The notes beneath the pieces were generated by a model, which worked only from the letters and a program-made list of their open reading frames with translations, was not told the origin of the DNA and made no database searches. The position numbers were made by a program, and so were the translations under genes. From IMG/VR virus record IMGVR_UViG_2522572160_000003: a stretch of 64,000 bases of DNA; one strand, written 5' to 3'. Below are positions 1-19,446 of the stretch, piece by piece. The number at the start of each line of letters is the position of its first letter. Positions within the stretch are counted from its first letter, which is position 1. Source of the stretch: a virus. Its lineage: Duplodnaviria; Caudoviricetes.

Positions 1-261
1 ATTAATGCTAAACTCCTGACGTGGAGCGGAGTCTCCATAATAAATAATGGTTTGATCAAAATACTTGTTTATCACATCGTACATGCCCTGGAGGACGCTA
101 TGGGCATGGTCCAGATTATCAATTCCAGCAGCGTTTTTCGCTTCTTTATCAAAAACTTTAGGCGCGCCGAAAAGCATGGCATATCTATTTCCGGCGTGAA
201 CCGTTGAAGTCAAAGCCATTGCCATAAAGATTATAGCAAATATGGCAGCTATTTTTCTCAT
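1..261 (-). CDS. Exported caspase-like (peptidase C14-like) protein, N-terminal part only (runs off window start)
   Basis: Not in ORF track. Translated by hand from ATG at 261: MRKIAAIFAIIFMAMALTSTVHA-GNRYAMLFG...NLDHAHSVLQGMYDVINKYF...YGDSAPRQEF. Signal peptide plus a pattern like the C14 N-terminus (RYALLIG...L..A..D..M...L...F). Catalytic His/Cys would lie outside the window. Confidence 0.5.
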   Translation of the reverse strand, partial: MRKIAAIFAIIFMAMALTSTVHAGNRYAMLFGAPKVFDKEAKNAAGIDNLDHAHSVLQGMYDVINKYFDQTIIYYGDSAPRQEFSIN

Positions 262-274
262 TTTAAACCCCCAA

Positions 275-1756
275 CTACCTAAAATTTATAGGTTTTGAAA
301 CGGCCAAAACACTTAGACCACCGTTACTAATTTCCCTGGTGATAAAATTAACACACTCGTTGTCACCATTGAGGCATGAAACCTGAAACCTATGCTCCAA
401 AAGATAGACTTTGAAGAACATATCAGATGGCGGCTTTACGCCCGCTTTTCCCCAATCAATGGTCAGGGTTTTTTTCTGGAACTTATCAATATAGGAATCG
501 TTGTGGCGTATTAGCGGATAGGGGTAATCAGGTTCATTTCCATAATCAACTTCTAGTAAAACGTACCCCTCATGGCTGGACTCCACTTCCAAAGAAATTT
601 TGTCATCTAAAAATCTTTTTGAAACAATGTTAATTGCTGGCTTTGACTGTTTATTATCTACCCAATAAATTTGGGACAAACAGTCAAACTCATCTCTTTT
701 ACCCAAGATAACTTTACCGTTTACTCGTTCCACCGAATGAAAGTTTACTATTAATCCCAAGGCCTCTAACTCACTATTACTTCTTATAATATCGCCTCTT
801 TTCACCAACATTGCGTGAGTGGCTGTTGCCGGCGCAAAAACGGCTTCACCATTATACAATTCGTTAAAAATTTTCCATGTTTCCACTCTGGGAATAACTG
901 AAACTTTGGTTCCCATACCAAAGAGATTGATCGCGTTCTCAATGTGATCAGGTAACTTAGATTTAATGTTTTCAGGCAATGATTCATCTATAATCATATC
1001 CAAAACCAACGGCCGCTCTGGATTTACAGCGTTATACCTACACAATAATGCAACGCCCATTATTCTTCCCAAAGATGCAGCATCGGCTGCTGGAGAGTCA
1101 GGGTAGCCTGAAATAAATTGGTAATCGCCTAACTTCCTTCCGCCATCTTTTGCGTAAAACTTATCGACGTTTCGATATTTTTCAGCCTTGAGAATTTTCT
1201 CGATTACACATGCTGCAGTATCAAAAGCTCCCTCTGCATTCCTTATCACCACTGTCAGTTTAACATCCTCATCGCTTTCACCGACATGGATATATCCAAT
1301 GGATCTGGGCGCAGTTCTGCAAGGAAGTTGAGGTTTAATTCCTGGAGGGGGTTGAACATAATAGACAATATCGGTGTTCCCAAAAACATATGGAAGCACA
1401 CCTTCGGCACCATCAGTTGTCTTTTGCGCCTCAATCATTCCGCTTTCCAATTGCTTTCTGAGGCCATTCATTAACGTTGTCGTCTTTCCATAAGGAATGC
1501 TAGGATAATCAGGGTTAGCAATAAGCAATAAAACCGGCAGGATATTCTCTGCCTTACAAACATCATATATTTCCTGGGCGCATTCCTGAATTTGTTCTTG
1601 ATCGTCCTTCCTGCATTGCCTTTCTTTTGAAGAGATGCTGGAATCCCCGGAAAGGGAGGCACAGCCTGAAACAAATAGGCATAAAGCCATCATAAATACT
1701 GCGCACATCATGGTAGCCAAGCATTCTTTTACCTTATGACTTTTTTTGAATTGCAT
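275..1756 (-). CDS. Large lipoprotein, possible CsgG/FlgO-like domain(s) and C-terminal DUF4384-like domain
   Basis: Hydrophobic N-terminus with lipobox VSG-C. VIPRVETWKIFNEL resembles the CsgG/FlgO helix. DKISLEVESSHEGYVLL..YPL resembles DUF4384. Domain calls are by eye. Confidence 0.45.
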   Translation of the reverse strand: MQFKKSHKVKECLATMMCAVFMMALCLFVSGCASLSGDSSISSKERQCRKDDQEQIQECAQEIYDVCKAENILPVLLLIANPDYPSIPYGKTTTLMNGLRKQLESGMIEAQKTTDGAEGVLPYVFGNTDIVYYVQPPPGIKPQLPCRTAPRSIGYIHVGESDEDVKLTVVIRNAEGAFDTAACVIEKILKAEKYRNVDKFYAKDGGRKLGDYQFISGYPDSPAADAASLGRIMGVALLCRYNAVNPERPLVLDMIIDESLPENIKSKLPDHIENAINLFGMGTKVSVIPRVETWKIFNELYNGEAVFAPATATHAMLVKRGDIIRSNSELEALGLIVNFHSVERVNGKVILGKRDEFDCLSQIYWVDNKQSKPAINIVSKRFLDDKISLEVESSHEGYVLLEVDYGNEPDYPYPLIRHNDSYIDKFQKKTLTIDWGKAGVKPPSDMFFKVYLLEHRFQVSCLNGDNECVNFITREISNGGLSVLAVSKPINFR

Positions 1757-1896
1757 GTCCTCCCTCCCTGCATGCCAACTATACTATTAACGCGAAAGAT
1801 CAGCTGTAACAGTTGAGTACTTGTTACACTCAGCAGAAGTCGCTTCTTCCAAATATAAACAAAACAGACACTACCCAAAATTACTGTTCATAGGTA

Positions 1897-2556
1897 TTAT
1901 AATTGATAATTCTGGTAAAACTCCAAACGCTCCTCGTCATTCTCAAAAATCTTAAAACTGGAAATGCTGTTAAGAGCTTTAATCATGTCCCTTAATTGGG
2001 GGGTAATGTCTAAATTGGGCGTGCCATTTTTCTTGATGACCTCAAGCATGTCTTTTCCTATAATAATTTTAACGTTGCTTTTAACTCTTGAACGCAATGC
2101 ATCAGAGATATTATTAGGATAGGTGTTGGCTTCAGGCCCCACGATTCCGGTATGGATCGGAATGTTCAAAACGACTCCTTTGTCGAAGACAATTTGCCCG
2201 GAAAAATCGTATTCCACTTTTCCTTCCCAATGTTTGGCGGTTTCGCCGTGGTAGGTGGTTGTCTTTTCAACTAATTCCTTTTCATCGAATTTTCCAGTCA
2301 GCTTTACCTCGAGAAGATCTAAATCCGAATTTTGCTTGTCTAATTCCCCCCTTAATTCCTCCGCGATTTCTTTTCCTATCTGGGAAATTACACTGTCTGG
2401 GTCCATGTCAAACCCGCCATGATTCAGGATGGGTTCCGTTTCGGCGCCTTTCATAGAGGAGGCCTTTTGCAGCGGGTCATTGGCATTAGTCGATTGAACC
2501 GCAATGATCATAAATGCTGAAATTAACAGTGATGTGATAAGTCTCATTTTGGTCAT
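1897..2556 (-). CDS. Exported hypothetical protein
   Basis: Start re-called at MTKMRLITSLL; signal peptide ending STNA; co-oriented in operon. Confidence 0.6.
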   Translation of the reverse strand: MTKMRLITSLLISAFMIIAVQSTNANDPLQKASSMKGAETEPILNHGGFDMDPDSVISQIGKEIAEELRGELDKQNSDLDLLEVKLTGKFDEKELVEKTTTYHGETAKHWEGKVEYDFSGQIVFDKGVVLNIPIHTGIVGPEANTYPNNISDALRSRVKSNVKIIIGKDMLEVIKKNGTPNLDITPQLRDMIKALNSISSFKIFENDEERLEFYQNYQL

Positions 2557-2558
2557 TC

Positions 2559-3317
2559 CTATGCAGAAAAGCCGTAGTCCTTTTTTAAAATGGTTGCATG
2601 CCGTAGGATGCGTTGGCAATAAACGTCCGGATCAATGGTTGTAGACCCATCTGTATAGTATATTTTACGCACGACCTTCTGGCCCTTAACGCCCTCCCTC
2701 CCTCTGTAGTAATATTGCAGGGCCATGCACCAGTCTTCATTTACTGATTTATCAAAATGTTGTTTTGGGTAGTCCTTAACTGACAAATCAAATTGCTTGC
2801 TTAGATAGTAGGCTCCTGCCATTATAGCCGTTTCCGGGTTGTTTCGGTTATCCCCAATATCTATGCCCCTTTCTTCTAACTCACATTGGATCTCCGTAAA
2901 AGTGGAATCTATAATTTGAGTCAGACCCTTGGCGGAAGACAATGGTTTTCCATTTTTGCCAATGGGAACGGCCTCAGGCCTACCTGAGGATTCCTGATAT
3001 ATCAACCCGGCGATGATAGAAGGGGGGACTTTAAAGGTACGGGCAGCTTGCCAAACTTCTTTTTTGTATGGCACTACTGCTTTGGATATTATTTCCTTGT
3101 ATTCTTTGGTGACGTTTTCAATGGGGCCGGTTTCGTTCTTGATGGAGTAATCTCTTTTATAAATCATCTCCCAGACCTCAAGATGTTTGCTGGCCTCCTT
3201 TAAAAGTTTCAATCCCTCTGACGCCGCAGCCATTCCGGAAAATATTATTGCCAGAATAATGAGCCAGCCCACACTATTTCCGAAATGTAAGATAAGTCGA
3301 GTTTTAATTTTACTCAT
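2559..3317 (-). CDS. Lytic transglycosylase (SLT domain), N-terminally anchored/exported
   Basis: SLT motifs IYQESSG (catalytic Glu), AKGLTQI, AGAYYL, ALQYYY; N-terminal hydrophobic helix. Confidence 0.85.
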   Translation of the reverse strand: MSKIKTRLILHFGNSVGWLIILAIIFSGMAAASEGLKLLKEASKHLEVWEMIYKRDYSIKNETGPIENVTKEYKEIISKAVVPYKKEVWQAARTFKVPPSIIAGLIYQESSGRPEAVPIGKNGKPLSSAKGLTQIIDSTFTEIQCELEERGIDIGDNRNNPETAIMAGAYYLSKQFDLSVKDYPKQHFDKSVNEDWCMALQYYYRGREGVKGQKVVRKIYYTDGSTTIDPDVYCQRILRHATILKKDYGFSA

Positions 3318-3332
3318 TTCATATCCTGTTTC

Positions 3333-3785
3333 TCACTTACTTTCCACAAATTGAACAGATACTCCGCATCTGTTTAATCTCCCAGTCAAATCCACGGCGT
3401 CCACTCCTGATATGGATTCGTCAGTAATGAGCACAAAAGCGGTAACATCCTCCTCTTTTACGCTGTCCGCATCATTAAGGGCTTTTCGCAGCCCGGAGAG
3501 ATCTGAATCATTCAGCCAAAAATGATCACCGTGAAATAATAATTCCACCTTTCCGCTACGTTTTACCGTTTTTACCACTAAAGATTTATCAACAACCTTA
3601 TTCGGATCAAGTATAGCGTTGGCTTCAACAGGGATGGCCGGCACCCCGCCGCCCCCGGGATGGATAGTCATTAAGGCAAATGAAAAAAGCAGCATAACCA
3701 TGAATAAATAGGCGAACAGGTCCTTGCCGGGATCCTGCAGCGCCAAAAAAGGATCTTCCCGCCTGCAGCCGAATCGCCTACCCAT
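3333..3785 (-). CDS. ExbD/TolR/MotB-like single-TM protein
   Basis: GAGGAG RBS before ATG 3785. TM helix beginning with Asp (PGKDLFAYLFMVMLLF), Pro-rich linker and C-terminal alpha/beta domain; overlaps the ExbB-like gene. Confidence 0.65.
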   Translation of the reverse strand: MGRRFGCRREDPFLALQDPGKDLFAYLFMVMLLFSFALMTIHPGGGGVPAIPVEANAILDPNKVVDKSLVVKTVKRSGKVELLFHGDHFWLNDSDLSGLRKALNDADSVKEEDVTAFVLITDESISGVDAVDLTGRLNRCGVSVQFVESK

Positions 3786-4374
3786 TATTTTTCTCCTCAA
3801 AAGCGGGATCTGGGTTTGCATCCGCTTCCATAAGGCATTTTAATAGGGAAGAGATTCTATGATTAATTTTTTTTTCAAATGCTTTGAGCCTTGGTTGTGT
3901 CCTTACAGCAAGAAAAAAGATAATAACGGCGCCTATAGCTGAGCTTAATAGTGACGTCAATAGAGCCGTGTTCAACCCCCCCTCAAAAGCCTGCGAAATA
4001 GCTTGCGTCGCTACCACATTCTGAGTGCTCAACGCCTTAGTCATCTCCTGAAACGCAAAAATGGTTCCATAGATCGTCCCAAAAAAACCCAAAAGAATGG
4101 CTGAATTGACTACGCCGCCAATGCTGGCGACCTGGCTTGATATTTCAGTCTCATATTCCAACCACACCTGGTCAACGCAAGAATCCACCCATGATTGATG
4201 ATAGTTTACGCCTGGCTCAATGGGCAATAAGTCATCGATCCATGTCATGTCTTCTCTGGCTCTCAATTCGCCCCACACCTTGATTATTTTATATAAGATT
4301 GCTATTGCCAAGCATACAAAAAGCAATACGAAAACCAGATCAAGGCTTTTGTATAGTTCAGACGGCGTCATCAC
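3778..4374 (-). CDS. MotA/TolQ/ExbB family proton-channel protein
   Basis: Three TM helices with LLGFFGTIYGTIFAF and GLNTALLTS signatures. Confidence 0.85.
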   Translation of the reverse strand: MMTPSELYKSLDLVFVLLFVCLAIAILYKIIKVWGELRAREDMTWIDDLLPIEPGVNYHQSWVDSCVDQVWLEYETEISSQVASIGGVVNSAILLGFFGTIYGTIFAFQEMTKALSTQNVVATQAISQAFEGGLNTALLTSLLSSAIGAVIIFFLAVRTQPRLKAFEKKINHRISSLLKCLMEADANPDPAFEEKNNG

Positions 4375-4548
4375 TTTCTACTTTCATTGTCTGTTGGACT
4401 AAGAGCGCTCTCAAAAAATCAATATGCACTTTAAGGACAATGCGTTGAGTTTGAATCCCAACCCCAAAGGGATATTCACTCTCGTATTAAAGGCACCGAT
4501 TTAAGGCGAGCTTTCTGAAAATAAAACTCTTGGTTCTGTTTTTGAAAC

Positions 4549-5253
4549 TTAAAGTCTGTTTACTATTTCGGGGTCAATGATTGTTTTATCCACTTGAGTG
4601 GGCGCATAACTGAGCCAAGCAAAAACCTGATCAATTCTGGAAACCATTTCATCAGGTACTAAGCCCATTTTTTCATTCTTTCTGTAGAGTTTCACTGCAT
4701 CACTGCTTAAAAAGTCTAACTTTTCCTTGACAAACGAAGTACTGCCTGTAAAAGAGTCCACTTTAAACGATGGCGGATACTTGATGTTTTCTCTGATTCT
4801 GTCGATTAACAAATCCACGCGCCCTATCCTGTCCTCCCATTTGCCGGCAGTTGAGTTGCTCAGTTCTTCAAATTCATCCTCTACGATTTGCTGGTCAGAC
4901 GTCAACAACAGTTGAGCTTCCTCAGCAGTCATTTCATTGGCGACCAGTTCTTTTTCATATTTGCGCTTTACCAGCATTTTCTCAACCGCAAGTTGCTTTC
5001 TAAGCGTTGCTTCATAATCCTTGTAAACAATGGACTTATTGGCATGATAAACGGCTTCTTTGCAATCATTAAAGATGGAATCCTGCACAAGAAGGCTAAT
5101 AATTTCTTTGTTGCTGATTTTGCTTGATTCTTCGTCAATCTCACGTTTAAGTTCCTTATTGCTTTCCTCATAGGATCCTGCAGAAGATTCCCCCACTTGA
5201 AAAGCCACTGCTAAAACCAATAACACACAAAAAACTATTCTATAATGGCGCAT
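4549..5253 (-). CDS. Exported alpha-helical/coiled-coil protein
   Basis: AGGGAG RBS before ATG 5253; signal peptide; charged helical composition. Confidence 0.6.
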   Translation of the reverse strand: MRHYRIVFCVLLVLAVAFQVGESSAGSYEESNKELKREIDEESSKISNKEIISLLVQDSIFNDCKEAVYHANKSIVYKDYEATLRKQLAVEKMLVKRKYEKELVANEMTAEEAQLLLTSDQQIVEDEFEELSNSTAGKWEDRIGRVDLLIDRIRENIKYPPSFKVDSFTGSTSFVKEKLDFLSSDAVKLYRKNEKMGLVPDEMVSRIDQVFAWLSYAPTQVDKTIIDPEIVNRL

Positions 5254-5312
5254 AATTATCTCCCTTACAAGATTACTCATCTAAGATGCCATTGTTATTG
5301 CCAAAAAGCCCT

Positions 5313-6323
5313 CTAATCCAAAGTTAACCCTTTGTAGCGGGCCAATCTTTCATCGTTGCTTTCTCCAACATTGATGTTGGGCATTCCGCTTGGATTGTTT
5401 TTGTACTTTTCATCTAGTATACGTAAAGATTCCAAGCCTTCGTCTCTCATTAGCTTGTTCACATTATCCATTGCGGCTCCTGTTTTATCCATAGCTAAAC
5501 TGAGATTCCTAAAAGCTATTATGCCTTCACGGAAAGACTTTGAGGCTATAATCATATCATCGCTGAAAGCCCCTGTATTCACCTGAGAAAACTTACGAAA
5601 TAAGCGAATAAAATGACTATGGAACTTATCAGCGGCAGGGAGAAAACTATTTTTCATCAACAAGGCATTATCCTTCATTACCTTGTTGAATTGTTCAAGA
5701 AACTCGTTCTCCACTTTCATACTTTCATAGCTGACAATAATATTTTCAATTCTATCAAACTTTCTATCTATCGTATTTTGTAGCCTCGCCTTGCAGGAAT
5801 CATTCCTACATCCTTTTTGTTCGTTAATAAGCCGTTTAATTTCTTTTTCTAAGGCTTCCTTGCCGCGAACCAGTTCACGACGCCTCTGTGGGATTTCGGC
5901 GTTCATTCCCCGCTCGGAAATGGCTTCAATCTCATCCACCCCTCTAATTACCATTTCTTTCAAGCTATTGACATTTTCAGTGGTGGATGAGGCATTCTTT
6001 GCCAAAGGGGAGTTCAACTTCACCACCGCAAGTCTAATTTTTAATGTGAGATTTTTACTCAAATCTTCAGGAACCTGGCCGTTGTAGCGGGATTCTGCCT
6101 CTTCCCATTCATTAATTATCTTGTCAATTTCAGTTTTGAATTCAACCATAGCCTTGGCAACTCCGTCTAACCCACTAACTGCATCCCCAGTAGCGTCTGT
6201 TATCCCCTTGATAGTTGTCACGGCTTGGTGAATGGATTCTTCCGTGGTGACTGCATGGCAAACAGGCGAAAACACCACTCCCATGAGCAGGATTGCCAAA
6301 AGAACTTTCCGTATTACTAACAT
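5313..6323 (-). CDS. Exported long coiled-coil protein
   Basis: AGGAGG RBS; signal peptide (VCHA); heptad-rich; CRNDSC pair at a probable hairpin tip. Confidence 0.65.
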   Translation of the reverse strand: MLVIRKVLLAILLMGVVFSPVCHAVTTEESIHQAVTTIKGITDATGDAVSGLDGVAKAMVEFKTEIDKIINEWEEAESRYNGQVPEDLSKNLTLKIRLAVVKLNSPLAKNASSTTENVNSLKEMVIRGVDEIEAISERGMNAEIPQRRRELVRGKEALEKEIKRLINEQKGCRNDSCKARLQNTIDRKFDRIENIIVSYESMKVENEFLEQFNKVMKDNALLMKNSFLPAADKFHSHFIRLFRKFSQVNTGAFSDDMIIASKSFREGIIAFRNLSLAMDKTGAAMDNVNKLMRDEGLESLRILDEKYKNNPSGMPNINVGESNDERLARYKGLTLD

Positions 6324-6364
6324 GCCTTCCTCCTTGATTAGTGGAAATATGGGCCTTTTACTAT

Positions 6365-6871
6365 TTATTGCTGCACATAACCAGGATCAACCTTTTTCAA
6401 CAGGCGTTTAGAGCAAAGCTCAACTTTTTTAGCCCGTCCGTCCATAGTTGAAAGGCTCCAGTCATAGATCGCGCGAAGAAACTCTTGGTCAGCCGCCCTC
6501 AGTTTCAATCTACCACCGGCTTGAGAATCTTCAATATTTGAAAAATATTGACATGAGGCCGCTACAAAATTCTCCATTTGGCTTTCCTTGTTAAAAGCCT
6601 TGATCGCTTCCACAAGCACGTCGTTGTCAACCCTCCGGTTGGCGTCAAGAATCTTGACAATCATAGCCATTCTGGCATCCGCATACCTGGAGTTGTCTTT
6701 AGTTTCGCGGAAAAACCTGTCAATTTCGGAATTTGACAACTCTGATACCGGCATAGTTTGCATTTGATCTACCGTCAAAGGGGCCGCCGATGGTTGGGGA
6801 GATTTTTCAACACACCCCGCCAATGATAAAGCCATAAGAACTGCTGCAATAATTGTCATCTTTCTCCTCAT
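6365..6871 (-). CDS. Lipoprotein, helical-repeat-like
   Basis: Canonical lipobox LAG-C; GGGGAG RBS. Confidence 0.75.
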   Translation of the reverse strand: MRRKMTIIAAVLMALSLAGCVEKSPQPSAAPLTVDQMQTMPVSELSNSEIDRFFRETKDNSRYADARMAMIVKILDANRRVDNDVLVEAIKAFNKESQMENFVAASCQYFSNIEDSQAGGRLKLRAADQEFLRAIYDWSLSTMDGRAKKVELCSKRLLKKVDPGYVQQ

Positions 6872-6927
6872 AGTATCTCCCCTTTCTGACCTTCTACATT
6901 GGGTGCTATAGTAAAAACGCCTATTAA

Positions 6928-8070
6928 CTATTTAACCTGTACTATGCCCTTTTCTATGAAAAACGCTGCATCAGGATCCTGATTTATTAAGTCGCCGGGC
7001 AACAATTTCCAACCCTGTCCATCATCATAATACAACGGTATGATAAACGCTTGGCCCCTGGAGTCCACACCTGCATTTGAAGTCAAACGCCCGGCCGCCA
7101 TTCTTACGGATAACATGCAATTAGGGGAATTCCTTTGGGACGTATGCCACTTTCGTACTGCATTTAATTTATTAAAAAAATAGCCGCAGTATTGTTTAGG
7201 AACAACGTAGTAGACGCGCTCAATTTTGCTTGAGCCAACTTCCTTGGAATACTTTTTTCGCCAAGCACGTAGTTCCTCTTCATGGTCATCCACGCAAGCC
7301 TCAATTTTAATCGGATACACAGCATCCAACTCGTCATCTTGAACCCAATCAAAATCACGAAAAGAACTCTTTATAAAAATACCGCCGTTGCTTGAAATCA
7401 GCGCCAACTTCATATTCAAATAGGGATAAAGAGTTTTTAACATGTATCCTCTCGAATTTTTTATCTCCCAGGAAACATTCCCATCCCCGTCCCAGGAGGC
7501 GCTGTTAAGATCGTTGTGCAAAGAAAAAAAATCGTTTTCTATGCTCTCCGAGGTTTCAACTCCCTGTACGGATGTGAGCGTTTCAAAAGCAGACGTCTTT
7601 TCCTCCTCCTTTTGATTTTCTTGCTCCTGCACTTCTTCTTTCTGGGGATCTGGCTTCATTTCGGGCTTAGCGTCATCACTGTCAGCATGTTCGTCAGCTG
7701 ATTCCCCTGCAGTCTGAGTTTCCTCTTCCTGCGGGCTTTCATCCTTCTCAATTCGTTTATCCGATTCCACCCCCAACGTGGTGGTTTCATCCATTGCACC
7801 ATCCGGCTTTTCACTCAGTTGTTCTGCACCGACATCTTTCGTATCTTTGGCCGCATTGGAATTATGATCTGTAGGTGTATTTGGAGAAGAGGGGGTTGGA
7901 GGCGTCGAACCGGGAAAAGGCTTTCCTGTCTCAACATATCCTGAAGAATCATCTGATTTTCCCCCGCCAACCAGGGGTGCGGCCATCTGCCATAAAAAGA
8001 GAATTATAGCCAAAATGACAACCGCAATCAGCAGGTAATTCAATTCCTTTCTCAACTTGTCCCTTTGCAT
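6928..8070 (-). CDS. Membrane-anchored protein with Pro/Glu-rich linker and C-terminal globular domain (TonB/TolA-like architecture)
   Basis: Single N-terminal TM, ~130-aa low-complexity acidic/Pro segment, then a folded domain; first gene of the operon. Confidence 0.55.
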   Translation of the reverse strand: MQRDKLRKELNYLLIAVVILAIILFLWQMAAPLVGGGKSDDSSGYVETGKPFPGSTPPTPSSPNTPTDHNSNAAKDTKDVGAEQLSEKPDGAMDETTTLGVESDKRIEKDESPQEEETQTAGESADEHADSDDAKPEMKPDPQKEEVQEQENQKEEEKTSAFETLTSVQGVETSESIENDFFSLHNDLNSASWDGDGNVSWEIKNSRGYMLKTLYPYLNMKLALISSNGGIFIKSSFRDFDWVQDDELDAVYPIKIEACVDDHEEELRAWRKKYSKEVGSSKIERVYYVVPKQYCGYFFNKLNAVRKWHTSQRNSPNCMLSVRMAAGRLTSNAGVDSRGQAFIIPLYYDDGQGWKLLPGDLINQDPDAAFFIEKGIVQVK

Positions 8071-8491
8071 TGACGCACCCTTCCGAAAAAAGTCACAAGA
8101 TTCAGTTTCTCACAAAATGACATGATAAGTTTAAGGTGTGCACCTTGCATTAAAAGGATAAAGACCGCATTGCACATATACTTCACTGCTCCCAAACTGA
8201 TTTGCAGAAATGAATCAAAAGGCCGGGGCCTATATGAAGATATTATCTTGTATTAGAGCGTCATACTAATTACCCTAACAAACAAAAGTCAAGTCAATTT
8301 TTAGATGTTTTTTTTATTGCTTTAGGGCAAAGAATTCGTCTTTGCCATTTTCGTTATCCCAAGCCTTCGGGAAAATGTGCGGATTAGGATTCTACGTGAT
8401 TTTTGATTGTTTAATGGATTATTTGGCCACTCACAACAATTTTTTAATTTGCATAAAATACAGATATTAGTTTGAAAGTTATTAGAATGAT

Positions 8492-9806: not shown

Positions 9807-10679
9807 ATGTTCAAAATTTTTAAAAGGTTAACTGCAATTTCGATCGTTTTCTTCCTTGTCCTGTTCATTTATGCTTCCATAGGTATTTCGGGCCAGGATG
9901 AGCTTCCCACCGGTCAGACGTTGAGCGAAGTTAAAACCCGGGTGTTGTCTACGCTGGAAAATGAGATGGAGAATGCAGGGTTTCGCTGGGGCGCACCCGT
10001 ATTTTTACGCATATTTAAGGATGTTAAGTTTCCAGGAGGATACAGGGCATATGGTCGAAGAAATAAGTCATACGGAGAAAACGGAGTATTGGAAGTTTGG
10101 GTGCAACGCAATGACCAATTCTGCCTTTTCAGGTCATATGCGGTTTGCTATTTCTCCGGAAGCCCGGGGCCCAAGACAGAGCAGGGGGACTACCAAAGCC
10201 CGAAGGGGTTTTATTTTGTCACTCCGCAGCGGATGAACCCATACAGCTCTTATCATTTAGCCTTTAACTTGGGCTATCCAAATGTTTATGATCGCGCGCA
10301 CGAGAGAACCGGAAGTGCTTTAATGGTCCACGGGAATTGCTGCTCAGTCGGTTGCTATGCCATGACAGACCCTAAAATTGAAGAAATATATTTGTTGGTT
10401 GAGGCTGCTCTTAGCGCAGGGCAGCCTTTCGTTCGCGTTCATATTTTTCCTTTTCCAATGACAGACGAAAACATGGAGGCGGCCGAAGGCTCACAATGGA
10501 TTGATTTCTGGAAGAACCTGAAAGAAGGATATGACTTTTTCGAGAATAATAAAGTTCCCCCAAACGTGGAAGTGAGCAACAGGCGATATATTTTTAAAGT
10601 GGAAGAAGTCGCCCCAGCTGCTTTTCCGGTGGCAGGGTCGCCTTCACCTCAAGCTCATCCTGGTGATGCTTTGGACTGA
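9807..10679 (+). CDS. L,D-transpeptidase-family protein, YafK/DpaA-like
   Basis: GPKTEQGDYQSP, NLGYPN, MVHGNCCSVGCYAM (His/Cys dyad), FPFPMT and FWKNLKEGYD match the YafK subfamily. Confidence 0.85.
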   Translation: MFKIFKRLTAISIVFFLVLFIYASIGISGQDELPTGQTLSEVKTRVLSTLENEMENAGFRWGAPVFLRIFKDVKFPGGYRAYGRRNKSYGENGVLEVWVQRNDQFCLFRSYAVCYFSGSPGPKTEQGDYQSPKGFYFVTPQRMNPYSSYHLAFNLGYPNVYDRAHERTGSALMVHGNCCSVGCYAMTDPKIEEIYLLVEAALSAGQPFVRVHIFPFPMTDENMEAAEGSQWIDFWKNLKEGYDFFENNKVPPNVEVSNRRYIFKVEEVAPAAFPVAGSPSPQAHPGDALD

Positions 10680-11808: not shown

Positions 11809-12585
11809 ATGGACCTTGATGAAAAAAATCAAAAGCATTTGGAACGTCAGCTAATTGCCTCGGAACGTAAACTGGGGCAGTACGACCCGCAAACAATAAG
11901 TGTCGGATTGAATCTTGCACGCATCTATGTAGAACAAGGCCGTTTTGACAAAGCGGAGCCTCTCTATCTGAGAGACTTGCATTTCTTTGAAAGAATGGAA
12001 GGCGAGGACGGCATTTGCGTTGCTTTTTCATGTTCAAGAATCGGAGCATTTTACGAAGCATACGGAAAATTTGATCAGGCAGAGGCTATGTACTTGCGAG
12101 AACTGAAGATCATTGCATGCATTGATGACAACTTCCTTCCAGTACGTATTGCAAAGCTGTTAAAGGTTTCCTTAAGCCAGGAGAATTTTTCCAAGGCTCA
12201 GAAATACTGTGATAGTCTCATGAATTTAATCATAACGATTTTGAGAGAGGATTATAATAACGATGATGATTACGTCTCGGACTTATCGGATTTACTAAAC
12301 GAAATGGCTTGGGCTTATCATGAGAAAGGCTGGAAAGAGCAGGCGCTGGGCTTGTATTTGAGGGGGATGGAGCTTTATGAGTTTTTTGGAGGAACGGATC
12401 AACCCATGATGGCATTCTTGTCTCATGGCATGGGGCTGTTTTGTAGAGAAGCAGGCCACTCGATTTTAGCCGGGAAGTATCTTAATCAAGCGGTTGAACT
12501 CGCCCAAATGCTTTGGGGGCCCGATGATCCGGACACGATTCGTTTTAAGAAAAATCTGACTGCTTTATCAATATTGCATCAATAA
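11809..12585 (+). CDS. Tetratricopeptide-repeat protein (kinesin-light-chain-type TPRs)
   Basis: LNLARIYVEQGRFDKAEPLY-type repeats; LWGPDDPDT. Confidence 0.8.
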   Translation: MDLDEKNQKHLERQLIASERKLGQYDPQTISVGLNLARIYVEQGRFDKAEPLYLRDLHFFERMEGEDGICVAFSCSRIGAFYEAYGKFDQAEAMYLRELKIIACIDDNFLPVRIAKLLKVSLSQENFSKAQKYCDSLMNLIITILREDYNNDDDYVSDLSDLLNEMAWAYHEKGWKEQALGLYLRGMELYEFFGGTDQPMMAFLSHGMGLFCREAGHSILAGKYLNQAVELAQMLWGPDDPDTIRFKKNLTALSILHQ

Positions 12586-15329: not shown

Positions 15330-15437
15330 CTTTAAGGGGCCGAACAATCCCTATTCCAATCACTCCGTCTTTCCCCTATTCCACTCATCCCGAGTGAATC
15401 CGTGATCCCAAACAATTCAAACCAAAGGAGTTTGCCT

Positions 15438-16871
15438 ATGATCAAGGAGTATTTGAAGGCCGGATATCCGGCCATATGCCTGTTGACGCAGGAGCCGCAC
15501 CGCGCAGAAGCGGTGTTGCCTTGCGAGGGCTGGAGATTCGTCTCCTGGGACTGCCTACAGGGCATCATTGACCTGGAAGCCAAAAAGGTCCTGGAAGAGA
15601 TCATCGACCCTGTCGAAGCCATTCGCTGGCTCGACAACTTCGGCGACACCGTGCTCATCGCCCACAACCTGCACCTGTTTCTCGAAGCCCCGGAGGTCGC
15701 CCAGGCCATCCAGAACGGCATTATCCGATGGAAAAGCATCGGCAGTGCGCTGGTCATGGTTTCCCCGGTGATCCAAATGCGGCCGGAGATCGAAAAGTAT
15801 TTCCATATCATCGATCTGGCCCTGCCTTCCGACGAAGACCTGTTCACAATCCAGATGGATTTCGCCAAGAAGCTCAACGTCAAACCCAACCGGAAGGCGG
15901 CCCGCGCCGCAAAAGGACTCACCGAATTCGAAACCGAAACAGCCTACGCCCTGTCCCTTGTGAAAAAGGGCTACTTTTCCACCCGGGTCGTCACTGAGAA
16001 CAAGGCTCAGATGATCCGCAAATCCGGCCTCATGGAGTTCTGGCAACCCGCAGACATTCAGGACGTGGGAGGATTGGACGCACTCAAATCGTTCATCGCC
16101 AACCGCATTCGAGCCTACGAATCGGACGGCGAATCCCTCCCCCGCCCCAAAGGAATATTGCTCTGCGGAGTTCCAGGGACTGGAAAATCTTTAACCTCCA
16201 AGGCAGTGGCATCATTGCTCAACTGGCCTCTCATCAAACTGGACATCGGCGCGTTGAAAAACTCTCTCGTAGGAGAATCCGAGCGCCGCATGCGCCAGGC
16301 AACCCAGGTGATCGACGCTTTCGGCGAAGCCATTATCTGGCTCGACGAGTGCGAAAAAATGTTCGCCGGGACCAAATCAAGCGGAGAAACCGACGCAGGC
16401 ACAACCGCCGGAATGTTCAGCCATTTCTTAAACTGGATGGCCGAAACCAATAATTCCGTATTGGTCATGTGCACTGCAAACAACATCTCCCAACTGCCGC
16501 CCGAGTTTCTGCGAGCCGGTCGATTCGACGCAACCTTCTTCGTGGATCTTCCCACCAAGGCGGAGCGCATCGAAATCATCAAAATCATGAACCGCAAGTA
16601 TAAAACCGACATCCCCCTATCATGGGCGGACCGGTTGACCGGGTTCACCGGCGCGGAAATCGAGCAACTGGCTAAAGACAGCCTGTTCGACGGCATAGAC
16701 GAAGCATTTCAAAACCTGGTTCCCATATCCCGGTCCATGCGCGAAGAAATCAACGCGCTCAGGGATTGGGCCAAGAACCGGGCTCGACTGGCGAACACGC
16801 CTGACAACCTCGAAACCGGTCAACGCAAACTGCGCACCGTTAAGAAGAAAGGAGGTGACACCAAGCATTGA
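15438..16871 (+). CDS. AAA+ ATPase, Ycf46/SpoVK-like
   Basis: AAGGAG RBS; DVGGLDALK, Walker A GVPGTGKS, Walker B IIWLDECEK, second region of homology TANN..LPPEFLRAGRFD. Confidence 0.85.
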   Translation: MIKEYLKAGYPAICLLTQEPHRAEAVLPCEGWRFVSWDCLQGIIDLEAKKVLEEIIDPVEAIRWLDNFGDTVLIAHNLHLFLEAPEVAQAIQNGIIRWKSIGSALVMVSPVIQMRPEIEKYFHIIDLALPSDEDLFTIQMDFAKKLNVKPNRKAARAAKGLTEFETETAYALSLVKKGYFSTRVVTENKAQMIRKSGLMEFWQPADIQDVGGLDALKSFIANRIRAYESDGESLPRPKGILLCGVPGTGKSLTSKAVASLLNWPLIKLDIGALKNSLVGESERRMRQATQVIDAFGEAIIWLDECEKMFAGTKSSGETDAGTTAGMFSHFLNWMAETNNSVLVMCTANNISQLPPEFLRAGRFDATFFVDLPTKAERIEIIKIMNRKYKTDIPLSWADRLTGFTGAEIEQLAKDSLFDGIDEAFQNLVPISRSMREEINALRDWAKNRARLANTPDNLETGQRKLRTVKKKGGDTKH

Positions 16872-17287
16872 GCCACATTTCCAAAATCGAGGTGAGGATC
16901 GACTCCCTCGACGCTCTGAAGCTCGCCTGCCATAGGCTGGGGTTCCAGTTCAACCAAAACCAGACCACGTACAAATGGTTCGGTCGATGGGTTGGAGACG
17001 AGCCCTTGCCCGAAGGCGTAAGCGAAGAAGAGCTTGGCAAATGCCATCACGCCATCATCGTGCCCGAATGCGAGTACGAAATCGGCGTGGTCAAACGCGA
17101 ATCCCATTACATCCTGTTGTGGGATTCATGGTATCGAGGCGGCTTGAAAAAGAAGATCGGCAAAAACGCCGGCATTCTCAAACAAGCCTACTCCATCGAA
17201 AAGATCAGGGCTGAAGCCCGCAAACGATCCTACCGCATCACCGAAAAACGGACGCCCCAAGGCATCCGCCTGACTCTCACCTGCTGA
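16868..17287 (+). CDS. DUF1257 (Ycf35-like) protein
   Basis: MSHISKIEVRIDSLDALKLACHRLG, YEIGV, Y.LLWD; GGAGGTG RBS with TTG start; canonical neighbour of the ATPase. Confidence 0.7.
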   Translation: MSHISKIEVRIDSLDALKLACHRLGFQFNQNQTTYKWFGRWVGDEPLPEGVSEEELGKCHHAIIVPECEYEIGVVKRESHYILLWDSWYRGGLKKKIGKNAGILKQAYSIEKIRAEARKRSYRITEKRTPQGIRLTLTC

Positions 17288-17295
17288 GGACAATC

Positions 17296-17493
17296 ATGAA
17301 ACAAATCATTTTGGACGTCTCCGACGACGGAGAGGTTCGCATTGAAACCCGAGGCTTTGCCGGAAAGGCTTGTCTGGAAGAGGCGCAGTTCATCAAGGAT
17401 CTGCTGGGTAAGGAGCTTACCCGCAACCTGACTCCCGCCTATTACCAGGACGCCAAAAAGAAGGCGAAGCGCTACCTTAACCTTTGCGGATAG
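17296..17493 (+). CDS. DUF2997 protein
   Basis: DGEVRIETRGFAGKAC...LG...TPAYY pattern. Confidence 0.75.
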   Translation: MKQIILDVSDDGEVRIETRGFAGKACLEEAQFIKDLLGKELTRNLTPAYYQDAKKKAKRYLNLCG

Positions 17494-17506
17494 AAAGGAA
17501 AACATT

Positions 17507-18370
17507 ATGGACGCCATTTTCAAGAAAGCATGTCTCGTACAATTCTCAGCCTCCGTGTGGCAGGGAACCCGCATGATCGATCCCGCCCTCATGGAAAGCC
17601 TGGGCCAGAACAGCGACTGGGTCAAAGCCCGCAAGAGGCTCATCAACCCCGAACTGTTAGGCCCCATCAAAACCGCCGTGCATCAGGCCCGAAACAACAT
17701 CCAGAAGCATGCATTGCCGTTTCCCATCACTGCGCTTTACCTGATTCCCAAGGAAAGCCTGACCATGATCGACGAAACCCTGCAGCAATTCAAGGAGCGT
17801 TTCTGGGCCAAGGTCAACGAGTTCGAGGCTCATTACGAAGAAGCCCGCGAGGAGGCGAAAGCCGTCCTGGGCGAATTGTGGAACGAAACCGACTACCCGA
17901 GCGACGTAACCGCCAAATTCAACTTTGAGTGGCGATTCCTCATCCTGGACGTCCCGAGCAAATCGAGCGTCCTGCCTCCCGAGGTATACGCCCGGGAAAA
18001 GGAGAAGTTCCAAAGCCTCATGGAAGAAACCCGTACTCTGGCCGCCGAAGCATTGGCCAAGGAGATGGGCGACATCGTCCATAATCTGTCGGAACGCTTA
18101 TCCGGCGGCAACAAGACCTTGTCATCCAACATGCTGAACAAGCTCAAGGAGTTCCTGGACGCCTTTGAAACCAAGAACATCTTTGAAAACGAACGCCTGA
18201 CGGAGCTGGTTACCCAAACCCGCGAGATCGTGGGCGGAGTCACTCCCTACGGACTTCGCTACAACGAATCCATCCGCCAGCGCATTTCAACTGACATGGC
18301 CAACCTGAAATCCGCCATTGACGAAGCCATCGAAGACCTGCCCAGGCGCAAGCTCCGCCTGGCTGCGTAA
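17507..18370 (+). CDS. DUF3150-like protein
   Basis: Helical protein with RLI.PE.L, LPFPI..LYLIP and DYPS...KF.F motifs, typical of ICE/prophage cassettes. Confidence 0.6.
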   Translation: MDAIFKKACLVQFSASVWQGTRMIDPALMESLGQNSDWVKARKRLINPELLGPIKTAVHQARNNIQKHALPFPITALYLIPKESLTMIDETLQQFKERFWAKVNEFEAHYEEAREEAKAVLGELWNETDYPSDVTAKFNFEWRFLILDVPSKSSVLPPEVYAREKEKFQSLMEETRTLAAEALAKEMGDIVHNLSERLSGGNKTLSSNMLNKLKEFLDAFETKNIFENERLTELVTQTREIVGGVTPYGLRYNESIRQRISTDMANLKSAIDEAIEDLPRRKLRLAA

Positions 18371-18427
18371 TTCCAAAGCGCATCCGATGCGTTTTCCATA
18401 CCTTATTAATAAGCAAAGGAGAAAACT

Positions 18428-18766
18428 ATGAACACCTGCATCATCAGCGGCAACCTGGGCGCGGACCCCGAATCCGTGTTCACCGCAGAAGGAACCCAAA
18501 TCGCATCCTTCAACATCGCTTTTAGATCCTCCAAGGACAAGACCTCCTGGGTCAAAGTGTCCTGCTTCAACCGATTGGCTGAAGTCGTGGACAAGTATCT
18601 CCACAAGGGCGCCAAAGTGGCCGTGGTCGGCATGCTGGATCAGGACAAGTGGGAGAAGGACGGGGCCACCCGCATCGCCCACAAGGTCATTGCCAACAGC
18701 ATCGAGTTCATCCGGACCGACGGACGCGGCTTTGACAACGGCGACGATGACGACATCCCCATCTAA
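18428..18766 (+). CDS. ssb: Single-stranded DNA-binding protein
   Basis: N.CIISGNLGADPE, YLHKGAKVAVVG, acidic tail DDDDIPI. Confidence 0.9.
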   Translation: MNTCIISGNLGADPESVFTAEGTQIASFNIAFRSSKDKTSWVKVSCFNRLAEVVDKYLHKGAKVAVVGMLDQDKWEKDGATRIAHKVIANSIEFIRTDGRGFDNGDDDDIPI

Positions 18767-18780
18767 CAAGGAGGTGAACC

Positions 18781-19446
18781 ATGGCTGAAAAACCCAAACT
18801 GGACGAACGCTTTATCATGCGCATCGAAGGCAAGGAGTTCGTGAAGTATCCCGGACTGCTGGACCTGGCGCATCAGAAAGGCATCGCCCAGATCGAAGTG
18901 GAGCCTTTGCAGTTCCCAACCGACGCCAACGGCATGTTCGCCATTTGCAAAGCGGTCGTCATAGCCAAAAACGGCGACAGCTTCAGCGATATCGGCGACG
19001 CCAATCCCAACAATGTCAACTCCCGGATAGCCAGGCACCTTTTGCGCATGGCATCCACAAGGGCTATTGCAAGGGCTCTTCGGAGCTTCACCAATATCGG
19101 CATGACCTGCCTGGAAGAGCTTGCAGACTTTGACGACGTCAAGGAGGAAAAACCTCCCAAGCAGACAACGGCAAAGAAGCAGACCAAGCCCAGGGCGGTC
19201 AAGAAGGAAGACAAACCGGTTGAAAAACCGGCTGAAAAGCCTGCCGATAAACCCAATGATAAGGCTGAAGATCGGCCCAGAATGAGCGAAGCTCAAAAGA
19301 AAGCCATCCACAACCTGGCTCAACGCCGGGGCATTGCTCCGGAAGAGTTGGATAAGATGGTTGAGGAAGCCTACGGCTCCGAGCTGTCTCACCTGACATC
19401 CACCGACGCATCCCAATTCATCCGCAGCCTGCAACAGGCCGCCTAA
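18781..19446 (+). CDS. Putative ssDNA-annealing protein (Rad52/RecT-like) with K/P-rich linker
   Basis: GDANP.NV...RMASTRAIARALR..TNIG; C-terminal SEAQKKAI...LTS.DASQ.I module; lies between ssb and the exonuclease. Confidence 0.5.
   Translation: MAEKPKLDERFIMRIEGKEFVKYPGLLDLAHQKGIAQIEVEPLQFPTDANGMFAICKAVVIAKNGDSFSDIGDANPNNVNSRIARHLLRMASTRAIARALRSFTNIGMTCLEELADFDDVKEEKPPKQTTAKKQTKPRAVKKEDKPVEKPAEKPADKPNDKAEDRPRMSEAQKKAIHNLAQRRGIAPEELDKMVEEAYGSELSHLTSTDASQFIRSLQQAA

What the first reader, a model, noticed from the sequence alone, without database searches (positions are those of the whole stretch)
1..8070. Candidate undescribed envelope machine: ExbB/ExbD-like motor with lytic transglycosylase, coiled coils, lipoproteins and a caspase-like protein
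Seen: ten co-oriented, mostly tightly spaced AT-rich genes, each with a signal peptide, lipobox or TM anchor. Known: MotA/TolQ/ExbB plus partner pairs are ion-driven motors (Ton, Tol-Pal, Mot, AglRQS, ZorAB). None of the diagnostic partners is recognisable in the visible part: no TonB-dependent receptor, TolB/Pal, OmpA-type domain on the B subunit, long ZorA tail or ZorC/D/E. Instead an SLT gene lies 15 bp after the ExbD-like gene. Inference: a mobile, motor-energised trans-envelope complex that opens peptidoglycan and couples to an exported protease (defence, contact killing, or secretion/uptake).
Basis: partly seen in the sequence, partly recalled or inferred. Interest (0 to 1): 0.82.

Follow-up and report, generated by a model that had tools for sequence, protein, structure and literature searches.

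The report
Orphan Ton/Tol-like motor cassette with transglycosylase
The ten envelope genes are real, but they are two separate, unnamed gene cassettes placed side by side on a genomic island: a very divergent proton-motor (ExbB/ExbD-type) operon with its own cell-wall cutter that also exists in another bacterial class, and the start of a second cassette built around an exported caspase-like protein and a peptide-type importer.

Summary
Observation confirmed. All ten minus-strand genes carry an export signal, lipobox or membrane anchor. MotA/ExbB and SLT pass Pfam's cut-offs. The ExbD-like and caspase-like calls get indirect support only.

Interpretation partly supported. The window shows the first third of a ~28-kb, 19-gene operon on an AT-rich island of at least 66 kb, with an integrase at its right edge. 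The genes fall into two independently conserved cassettes.

Cassette A (2559-8070) has seven genes: a TolA/TonB-shaped anchored protein, a lipoprotein, two periplasmic helical proteins, ExbB-like, ExbD-like and SLT. The same set and nearly the same order occur as a chromosomal operon in 11 of 20 genomes of another family (f95) of the same phylum. There it lies beside a divergent sigma-70 gene and lacks cassette B.

Cassette B starts at window 261 and runs leftwards: caspase-like protein with tandem repeats, possible propeller, SBP5-like protein, two permeases, double-NBD ABC ATPase, vWA protein. It recurs in three metagenomic lineages. Cassette A is absent from the two whose DNA could be read.

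No TonB-dependent receptor, Pal or Zorya partner is present. Two genes (1897-2619, 275-1756) have no relative anywhere searched.

Best reading: an undescribed Ton/Tol-type proton-driven force transducer with a dedicated lytic transglycosylase. Coupling to the caspase cassette is unproven. This scan noted the same cassette family before on other DNA (e1-1385112).

The parts
6928..8070 (-). Cassette A gene 1: 380-aa inner-membrane-anchored protein. It has one TM segment (residues 13-31), an acidic, Pro/Glu/Lys-rich spacer of about 150 aa, and a C-terminal domain of about 200 aa of unknown fold. The shape is TonB/TolA-like.
   Evidence: Sequence and hydropathy. No Pfam, NCBIfam, PDB or Atlas match. 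The f95 operons carry a 462-529-aa protein of the same architecture directly upstream of the ExbB-like gene. Sequence homology to it is not significant (hhalign P 0.03).
6365..6871 (-). Cassette A gene 2: 168-aa lipoprotein (LAGC lipobox).
   Evidence: Lipobox. Homologous to the first gene of the f95 operon: hmmsearch 2.7e-12; hhalign probability 96.5%, 150 columns.
5313..6323 (-). Cassette A gene 3: 336-aa exported protein that reads as coiled coil.
   Evidence: Signal peptide. A weak PADLOC match to the ZorA coiled-coil tail region (1.5e-4) is read as compositional. It has the same position and size as the f95 356-396-aa protein, but similarity is not significant.
4549..5280 (-). Cassette A gene 4: 243-aa exported protein that reads as helical.
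   Evidence: Signal peptide. Homologous to the f95 237-aa protein: hhalign probability 60%, E 8.7e-5, 158 columns.
3778..4374 (-). Cassette A gene 5: 198-aa ExbB/TolQ-type subunit with three hydrophobic segments.
   Evidence: Pfam PF01618 25.1 bits against a cut-off of 22.9. NCBIfam exbB 7.9e-5 and tolQ 5.6e-4. PADLOC ZorA core 7.7e-5. One 71%-identical relative on a 664-bp NCBI contig. f95 orthologues at 2e-22. The motifs GFxGTIxGxIxAF and GLxTALxTSL are conserved in all six sequences.
3333..3821 (-). Cassette A gene 6: ExbD/TolR-like subunit, 162 aa, with one TM segment. The true start is probably the ATG at 3785.
   Evidence: No PF02472 hit even at E 10. f95 orthologues at 1.6e-9, always directly after the ExbB-like gene. 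The motif DPGKDLFAYLF is invariant. In hhalign its second Asp aligns with the Asp at the start of the TM helix in ExbD/TolR sequences (P 0.014, 108 columns). The AF2 model (pLDDT 51) has the order beta-beta-beta-alpha-beta-alpha-beta. VIA Z is 7.5 to the E. coli ExbD periplasmic domain, with 73 of 74 residues aligned, tied with ASKHA subdomains.
2559..3317 (-). Cassette A gene 7: 252-aa membrane-anchored or exported SLT-family lytic transglycosylase.
   Evidence: Pfam SLT 4.5e-13. The E-S motif (QESSG) is present here and as VESGG in f95. f95 orthologues at 1.9e-32.
1897..2619 (-). Exported protein of about 217 aa (240-aa ORF; the likely start is the ATG at 2553). Orphan, cassette affiliation unknown.
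   Evidence: Signal-like segment. No family hit. No similarity to the f95 eighth gene or to the relatives of cassette B.
275..1756 (-). 493-aa lipoprotein (VSGC lipobox). Orphan, cassette affiliation unknown.
   Evidence: It matched only itself in the 5.8-billion-protein search. None in 40 related genomes. No family hit.
1..261 (-). N-terminus of the 1099-aa exported protein (full gene L005:2962-6261:-). This is the first gene of cassette B. It has a caspase-like (clan CD) N-domain, two tandem ~150-aa repeats and a C-terminal domain.
   Evidence: Atlas language-model hit 0.93 to C13/C14 clusters. His128 and Cys178 are conserved with P0005. The AF2 model is low confidence (pLDDT 42), yet Foldseek's top hits are MALT1, legumain and caspase-1, and all 50 top VIA rows are caspases, metacaspase or paracaspase (Z 8.2-9.1). 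Relative P0011 has Pfam Peptidase_C14 at 8.6e-4, below the cut-off, and the positional equivalent in L010 has PASTA at 2.7e-15. The internal repeat scores E 4e-24.
8263..8292 (-). Promoter-like site (TTGACT, 18 nt, TAGTAT) about 190 nt upstream of the first gene.
   Evidence: Consensus scan only. Such sites are not enriched over shuffled sequence.

Best explanation
The ten genes belong to one long co-oriented operon, but they are two independently conserved cassettes joined on a horizontally acquired island.

Cassette A (window 2559-8070) is a divergent member of an unnamed seven-gene Ton/Tol-type system. By analogy with ExbB5-ExbD2 and TolQ5-TolR2, the ExbB-like and ExbD-like proteins form a proton-conducting stator in the inner membrane. 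The conserved Asp at the cytoplasmic end of the ExbD-like helix would be the proton carrier. The motor would pull on the membrane-anchored, TolA/TonB-shaped 380-aa protein. Its long spacer reaches across the periplasm, and its unknown C-terminal domain would engage an envelope partner. The cassette's own lipoprotein and the two helical periplasmic proteins are the candidate partners. The SLT enzyme would cut glycan strands locally so the assembly can span or remodel the peptidoglycan.

Shown here: the family assignments of the ExbB-like and SLT genes, the export signals, and the conservation of the gene set in another class. Inferred: stoichiometry, proton coupling, the transducer role of the 380-aa protein, and the target.

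Cassette B begins with the caspase-like gene at window 261 and continues outside the window. It is a separate peptide-type ABC importer module with an exported clan-CD-like protein. Any functional coupling to cassette A in this genome is possible but unproven.
For: Operon extent and island. The 493-aa gene and the ExbB-like gene were not found in same-genus genomes.

Motor pair: PF01618 above cut-off, three hydrophobic segments and conserved TM2/TM3 motifs. For the ExbD-like protein, the gene order is conserved in ten f95 loci, the motif DPGKDLFAYLF is invariant, the full-length hhalign alignment to 32 canonical ExbD/TolR sequences is collinear with Asp on Asp (P 0.014), and VIA Z is 7.5 over 73 of 74 residues of the E. 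coli ExbD periplasmic domain.

Cassette A is conserved elsewhere: ExbB 2e-22, SLT 1.9e-32, lipoprotein 2.7e-12, ExbD 1.6e-9, and the 243-aa protein at hhalign probability 60%, E 8.7e-5. It is present in 11 of 20 f95 genomes and in all three genera. The chromosomal flanks are syntenic across two genera. The f95 operon also holds a TM + spacer + C-domain protein directly upstream of the ExbB-like gene.

Cassette B is independent: eight genes are syntenic in L006, seven in L010 before the locus ends, and a matching gene order is seen on the P0005 contig. No cassette A homologue is present in L006 or L010 at E <= 1. The cassette B binding protein found no match in the 20 f95 genomes.

The host has six canonical MotA/ExbB and three canonical ExbD genes elsewhere, so this copy is supernumerary.
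Against: The ExbD/TolR Pfam model does not hit the 162-aa protein. The hhalign probability is only 3%. The AF2 model is low confidence, and its fold match ties with unrelated ASKHA subdomains.

The ExbB-like profile finds no solved ExbB, TolQ, MotA or ZorA chain by sequence.

The 380-aa protein has no TonB_C or TolA domain, and its membrane helix lacks the Ser-x3-His motif of TonB and TolA. Its homology to the f95 495-aa protein is not significant.

No outer-membrane component was identified.

Tight spacing (13 nt between the 493-aa and 1099-aa genes) is compatible with co-transcription of both cassettes, so functional coupling cannot be excluded.

The empty search had no positive control in that run.
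Confidence: 0.58

Rival explanations
1. This is a single integrated machine. The ExbB/ExbD-like motor energises the whole 19-gene complex. The SLT enzyme and the exported caspase-like protein (whose relative carries PASTA domains) would cleave peptidoglycan, and the Opp-like ABC importer would take up the resulting peptides. Alternatively the complex secretes or takes up something else.
For: All 19 genes are co-oriented with short gaps, including 13 nt between the 493-aa lipoprotein gene and the caspase-like gene. There is a peptidoglycan theme: SLT, true PASTA domains in a positional equivalent of the 1099-aa protein, a LysM protein upstream in L006, and a YkuD-like gene at window 9807-10679. 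A possible TolB-like propeller in cassette B would complete a Tol-like parts list (weak PD40 hit in a homologue).
Against: The two cassettes are found apart in every other genome or contig that could be examined. No outer-membrane channel was identified.
Confidence: 0.2
2. Cassette A is simply an extra, very divergent TonB-ExbB-ExbD set. It would energise TonB-dependent receptors encoded elsewhere in the genome, and SLT would be an accessory.
For: In f95 the gene order is TonB-shaped protein, ExbB-like, ExbD-like, which is the classic tonB-exbB-exbD order. The best NCBIfam hit of the ExbB-like protein is exbB. Bacteria often carry several Ton sets.
Against: No TonB_C domain was found. The C-terminal domain is about 200 aa, against about 90 aa in TonB. 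No receptor is linked in any of the eleven loci. Four further conserved envelope genes and SLT are not part of any described Ton set.
Confidence: 0.12
3. This is a Zorya-like anti-phage defence or conflict system: a membrane motor that senses envelope perturbation, carried on a defence island.
For: The island also carries helicase/nuclease-type genes (UvrD-like at window 20604-22433; AAA_11/AAA_12 helicase with REase domain in L003). PADLOC gives weak ZorA hits for the ExbB-like core and for the 336-aa coiled-coil protein.
Against: No ZorB, ZorC, ZorD or ZorE, and no other PADLOC hit, in the window or in f95. The ExbB-like protein is 198 aa with no long tail. The coiled-coil protein has a signal peptide, so it is periplasmic rather than cytoplasmic. 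There is no nuclease effector. In f95 the operon has conserved chromosomal flanks that include pdxJ, acpS and an epimerase gene.
Confidence: 0.06

Closest known systems
Ton system (ExbB-ExbD-TonB)
   Same: A MotA/TolQ/ExbB-family protein with three hydrophobic segments is followed by a small single-pass protein with an Asp at the cytoplasmic end of its helix. An anchored protein with a Pro-rich periplasm-spanning spacer is present. In f95 the order is transducer, ExbB-like, ExbD-like.
   Different: The ExbD and TonB_C Pfam models do not match. The Ser-x3-His motif is absent from the anchor helix. The C-terminal domain is about 200 aa and of unknown fold. No TonB-dependent receptor is linked. 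SLT, a lipoprotein and two helical periplasmic proteins are fixed members of the operon.
Tol-Pal system (TolQ-TolR-TolA-TolB-Pal-CpoB)
   Same: The parts list is similar in kind: a stator pair, a TolA-shaped protein, a lipoprotein, periplasmic proteins that read as coiled coil (compare the CpoB N-domain), and a link to glycan-strand cleavage. In this genome a possible beta-propeller gene lies a few genes downstream.
   Different: No OmpA/Pal domain and no TolA domain III. TolB is not part of cassette A, and the propeller call is weak. Sequence similarity is limited to the ExbB-like core. The host keeps canonical copies elsewhere.
Zorya (ZorAB with ZorC/D, ZorE or ZorF/G)
   Same: A MotA-family core with weak PADLOC ZorA hits, and an island location in this genome.
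   Different: No ZorA tail, no peptidoglycan-binding ZorB domain and no cytoplasmic effectors. All accessory proteins are exported.
Opp/Dpp-type ABC importers (comparison for cassette B only)
   Same: An SBP_bac_5 hit in the equivalent gene of the P0005 contig, two permeases and two ABC_tran domains.
   Different: The two nucleotide-binding domains are fused in one protein. The window's own binding protein and permeases are barely recognisable. The module is always linked to an exported caspase/PASTA-type protein, a possible propeller protein and a 265-319-aa anchored protein, and to a vWA-like protein where the contig reaches that far.

Membership tests
MotA/TolQ/ExbB (PF01618) | Pfam model at or above the gathering score | tested here: met
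   25.1 bits against a cut-off of 22.9; 24.8 bits in the six-frame genome scan. The f95 orthologue scores 20.1, just below the cut-off.
MotA/TolQ/ExbB (PF01618) | Three (ExbB/TolQ) or four (MotA) transmembrane helices, with conserved Gly/Thr-rich motifs in the last two | tested here: met
   Hydrophobic segments at residues 13-31, 83-106 and 139-157. GFxGTIxGxIxAF and GLxTALxTSL are invariant in six sequences.
ExbD/TolR (PF02472) | Pfam model match | tested here: not met
   No hit at E <= 0.1 by hmmscan, and none at E <= 10 in the six-frame genome scan, which found the three canonical copies.
ExbD/TolR (PF02472) | Single N-terminal TM helix with a conserved Asp near its cytoplasmic end, encoded directly after the A subunit | tested here: met
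   TM at residues 35-53. DPGKD is invariant in five sequences. Asp aligns on Asp in hhalign. The gene order holds in all ten f95 loci.
ExbD/TolR (PF02472) | Periplasmic beta-beta-beta-alpha-beta-alpha-beta domain | tested here: inconclusive
   The AF2 model is low confidence (pLDDT 51). VIA Z is 7.5, rmsd 2.5 A, with 73 of 74 residues of E. coli ExbD (8p9r) aligned, tied with ASKHA subdomains. Foldseek gives TolR (5by4) E 6e-3.
TonB / TolA | TonB_C or TolA C-terminal domain; Ser-x3-His motif in the anchor helix | tested here: not met
   No Pfam or NCBIfam hit for the 380-aa protein or the f95 495-aa protein. The anchor helix (residues 13-31, LLIAVVILAIILFLWQMAA) has no Ser or His. Only the TM + spacer + C-domain architecture is shared.
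TonB-dependent uptake locus | Linked TonB-dependent receptor (PF00593 / PF07715) | tested here: not met
   No hit in any of the 19 operon genes or in the f95 loci proteins tested.
Tol-Pal | Pal lipoprotein with OmpA domain, and TolB propeller, in the cluster | tested here: not met
   No OmpA hit. There is only a weak PD40 hit (E 0.0021, below cut-off) in the L006 homologue of the 438-aa protein, which belongs to cassette B.
Zorya | ZorA with a long C-terminal tail, ZorB with a peptidoglycan-binding domain, and ZorC/D, ZorE or ZorF/G | tested here: not met
   PADLOC gives only a weak match to the ZorA core (7.7e-5) for the 198-aa protein. No ZorB to ZorG hits in the window or in the f95 cassette.
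SLT lytic transglycosylase (PF01464) | Pfam model above cut-off and the catalytic Glu-Ser motif | tested here: met
   49.2 bits against a cut-off of 21.3. QESSG in the window and VESGG in f95.
Clan CD cysteine peptidases (caspase C14 / legumain C13) | Caspase-haemoglobinase fold with His after strand 3 and Cys after strand 4, or a Pfam C14/C13 match | tested here: inconclusive
   No Pfam hit on the window's own protein. Atlas features score 0.93 to C13/C14 clusters. His128 and Cys178 are conserved, 50 residues apart, each following a predicted strand. All 50 top VIA rows are caspases, metacaspase or paracaspase, at Z 8.2-9.1, on a model of pLDDT 42. Relative P0011 gives Peptidase_C14 at 19.5 bits, below the 21.4 cut-off.

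The most novel reading that the evidence does not exclude
Cassette A is a further functional class of ExbBD/TolQR-type 5:2 motors, distinct from Ton, Tol-Pal, Agl-Glt, GldLM and Zorya. It would have its own TolA-shaped transducer of new fold, dedicated periplasmic partners and a built-in lytic transglycosylase. On this island it would have been recruited to energise a second undescribed module: an exported caspase-like protein (whose relative carries PASTA domains), a possible propeller, a vWA protein and an Opp-like importer that together process and import cell-wall peptides.
Probability: 0.22. Interest if true: 0.8.

Novelty: new variant of a known kind. Interest (0 to 1): 0.6.

Why it matters
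Ion-driven 5:2 motors are known to power only a handful of envelope processes: flagella, Ton uptake, Tol-Pal division, gliding and type IX secretion, and Zorya defence. A recent survey of MotAB homologues notes non-flagellar members of unknown function but does not mention a transglycosylase anywhere in its text (PMC12505986).

Here a seven-gene set built round such a motor is conserved across two classes of one phylum. Five of its seven proteins match no curated family. That defines a concrete, testable candidate for a new use of the proton-motive force in the periplasm.

The split into two cassettes also tells experimenters what to clone together (2559-8070). It also shows that the caspase-like gene should be studied with the ABC importer module rather than with the motor.

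Tried and rejected
- Two genome-contig scans (ExbB-like and SBP-like alignments) returned no relative. The patterns picked in the first scan were N-terminal and poor.
- The metagenome-contig scan returned only the contig already held.
- tblastn of the ExbB-like and SBP-like proteins against 72,556 plasmids gave no match.
- PDB sequence searches were empty or noise, both with single proteins and with five- or six-sequence profiles.
- The ESM Atlas model of the 380-aa protein has pLDDT 0.43 and no usable neighbour.
- Both AF2 jobs gave low-confidence models (pLDDT 51 and 42). I therefore use their fold matches only as supporting leads.
- hhalign of 380 against the f95 495-aa family, 336 against the 356-aa family, and 240 or 493 against the f95 eighth gene was not significant.
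- No DNA could be fetched for the ENA contig with P0005 or for GCA_024449895.1. So the genes upstream of the caspase-like homologue, and the context of the 71% ExbB-like relative, stay unknown.
- Sequencing-run search: only the probable source run holds the stretch, and no RNA holder is listed.
- Organism names are withheld for this genome.
- A homologue of the f95 sigma factor was sought in the own genome. The only matches are on other contigs, none on this island.
- Two literature searches found no paper describing this gene set.

Full report
**Where the finding sits.** The window is G000:C9:40004-104003. I fetched the 40 kb to its left. The ten minus-strand genes of the finding are the 5' third of a run of 19 co-oriented genes. 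That run extends from window 8070 down to L002:775, about 28 kb. The region has about 40% GC against about 56% in the host part of the window. A tyrosine integrase lies at window 25277-26599, where GC rises. The AT-rich stretch reaches the contig start, so the island is at least 66 kb. Same-genus genomes gave no match to the 493-aa gene or the ExbB-like gene.

**Checking the observation.** Every product has an N-terminal hydrophobic segment. Two have lipoboxes. The ExbB-like protein has three hydrophobic segments and the ExbD-like protein has one.
- Pfam gives MotA_ExbB at 25.1 bits (cut-off 22.9) and SLT at 4.5e-13.
- NCBIfam places the ExbB-like protein nearest exbB and tolQ. PADLOC gives only a weak match to the ZorA core.
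- Nothing in the 19 genes matches a TonB-dependent receptor, Plug, OmpA/Pal, TolA, TonB_C or ZorB-G.
- The genome has six canonical MotA/ExbB genes and three canonical ExbD genes elsewhere.

**The ExbD-like gene.** The Pfam ExbD model does not see it. The support is indirect.
- It overlaps the end of the ExbB-like gene, and this order holds in ten loci of another family.
- The motif DPGKDLFAYLF at the start of the single TM helix is invariant between lineages whose ExbB-like proteins are about 29% identical.
- hhalign of the five-sequence profile against 32 canonical ExbD/TolR proteins gives a collinear 108-column alignment with Asp on Asp. The score is weak (P 0.014, probability 3%).
- A single-sequence AF2 model is poor (pLDDT 51) but has the order beta-beta-beta-alpha-beta-alpha-beta. 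It aligns to 73 of 74 residues of the E. coli ExbD periplasmic domain at Z 7.5, tied with ASKHA subdomains of the same topology. Foldseek lists TolR at E 6e-3.

I rate it about 80% likely to be a TolR/ExbD-type B subunit.

**Cassette A is conserved elsewhere.** A profile of the ExbB-like protein and its one close relative (71% identity, on a 664-bp NCBI contig) was run over 400 genomes of the phylum. It hit four genomes of a single family, f95, at 1e-15 to 1e-19. Within f95, 11 of 20 genomes and all three genera have it. None of seven genomes of the sister family do.

The f95 loci show a fixed operon: lipoprotein, 356-aa protein that reads as coiled coil, 237-aa protein, a 462-529-aa protein with TM + Pro/Glu/Lys-rich spacer + C-domain, ExbB-like, ExbD-like, SLT. 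An extra lipoprotein follows in six of ten loci. Similarity to the window's genes is as follows.

| Window gene | f95 counterpart | Result |
|---|---|---|
| SLT (252 aa) | SLT | hmmsearch 1.9e-32 |
| ExbB-like (198 aa) | ExbB-like | hmmsearch 2e-22 |
| Lipoprotein (168 aa) | first gene | hmmsearch 2.7e-12 |
| ExbD-like (162 aa) | ExbD-like | hmmsearch 1.6e-9 |
| 243-aa protein | 237-aa protein | hhalign probability 60%, E 8.7e-5, 158 columns |
| 336-aa protein | 356-aa protein | size, position and architecture only |
| 380-aa protein | 462-529-aa protein | architecture only; it heads the operon here but precedes the ExbB-like gene in f95 |

The f95 operon has the same flanks in two genera. These include pdxJ, acpS, a YchJ-like gene and an epimerase gene. 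A divergently transcribed sigma-70 gene with regions 2, 3 and 4, followed by two unknown genes, lies upstream. So in f95 the operon behaves as a chromosomal, vertically inherited unit. The island in G000 has no homologue of that sigma factor. None of the unknown f95 proteins matches NCBIfam, PADLOC or a solved structure by sequence.

**Cassette B is a different unit.** The gene whose first 87 codons lie at window 1-261 encodes a 1099-aa exported protein. An exhaustive HMMER search of 1.84 billion representatives found only four relatives. Their contigs show the same downstream order:
- this protein or its C-terminal part;
- a ~430-aa protein, with a weak PD40 hit in one homologue;
- a ~265-320-aa anchored protein;
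- an SBP-like protein, which hits SBP_bac_5 in one relative;
- two permeases;
- a fused double-NBD ABC ATPase;
- a vWA-like protein.

phmmer values run from 1e-11 to 1e-96. None of the nine upstream genes of the finding has a homologue in L006 or L010, even at E <= 1. Those contigs carry other genes upstream: LysM and PepSY-like proteins in one, a 1595-aa WD40 protein in the other. The 20 f95 genomes gave no match to the cassette B binding protein (no positive control in that run).

The caspase-like call is reasonably supported. Atlas features score 0.93 to C13/C14 clusters. His128 and Cys178 are conserved, 50 residues apart, each after a predicted strand. Foldseek's top hits are MALT1, legumain and caspase-1. 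All 50 top VIA rows are caspases, metacaspase or paracaspase at Z 8.2-9.1, on a low-confidence model. Relative P0011 gives a near-threshold Peptidase_C14 hit, and the positional equivalent in L010 has true PASTA domains. The protein holds a tandem ~150-aa repeat (E 4e-24).

**The two genes between the cassettes.** The products of 1897-2619 and 275-1756 have no relative anywhere searched. I cannot assign them to either cassette.

**Mechanism.** I commit to cassette A being a Ton/Tol-type proton-motive-force transducer. An ExbB-like/ExbD-like stator would drive a TolA-shaped anchored protein, whose new C-terminal domain acts on an envelope partner. The SLT would open or remodel peptidoglycan locally. 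Only the family assignments, the export signals and the conservation are shown here. Stoichiometry, coupling and the target are inferred from ExbBD, TolQR and MotAB. A single machine joined to the caspase cassette, an extra Ton set serving distant receptors, and a Zorya-like defence role remain as rivals with lower weight.

**Known or new.** No paper found describes this gene set. A 2025 survey of MotAB homologues mentions non-flagellar members of unknown function and contains no occurrence of 'transglycosylase'. Earlier notes of this scan describe what appears to be the same cassette family on other DNA. Note e1-1385112 shares sequence words with the f95 ExbB-like protein and reports a seven-gene operon with its own sigma factor, which I saw independently. 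Note e1-1438261 describes a similar eight-gene set. I therefore rate this a new variant of a known kind. The window adds a very divergent, island-borne copy, fused in one operon to a second rare cassette.

Noticed in passing
L002:775-16960 (G000:C9:20778-36963), left of the window: Cassette B continues here: a possible propeller (438 aa), an anchored 319-aa protein, an SBP5-like 546-aa protein, two barely recognisable permeases, a 601-aa protein with two ABC_tran domains, and an 810-aa exported protein with a vWA-like DxSxS motif. Two paralogous exported proteins of 1124 and 774 aa that read as helical follow (E 1e-32 to each other).
   Followed up: partly
L003:7563-17170 (G000:C9:7563-17170): Further along the same strand lies a cluster of five radical-SAM genes (two with SPASM, one with a B12-binding domain), a 660-aa metallo-beta-lactamase-fold protein and a GT2 glycosyltransferase. 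This looks like a peptide or sugar modification cluster. No precursor gene was sought.
   Followed up: no
L003:417-5529: An 1159-aa AAA_11/AAA_12 helicase with a C-terminal REase_MTES_1575/DUF559 nuclease domain is followed by a 553-aa coiled-coil protein. This looks like defence-type cargo at the far end of the island.
   Followed up: no
window 15402-22433: A GC-rich insert (54-56% GC, strong AT skew) sits inside the AT-rich island. It starts with an AAA ATPase and ends with a UvrD-type helicase, and is probably a separately acquired cassette.
   Followed up: no
window 9807-10679 and 11809-12585: A YkuD-like L,D-transpeptidase gene (E 4.8e-5) and a TPR protein are transcribed divergently from the operon. 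This adds another peptidoglycan-related gene next to cassette A.
   Followed up: no
L049:2726-5451 (family f95): A sigma-70 gene with regions 2, 3 and 4 (249 aa) plus two unknown genes (192 and 451 aa) lie divergent from the f95 cassette and are conserved with it in two genera. This may be a dedicated regulator. No counterpart exists on the G000 island.
   Followed up: partly
L010:1-3481: In one relative of cassette B, a 1595-aa WD40-repeat protein and a 303-aa protein occupy the place taken by cassette A in the window.
   Followed up: no
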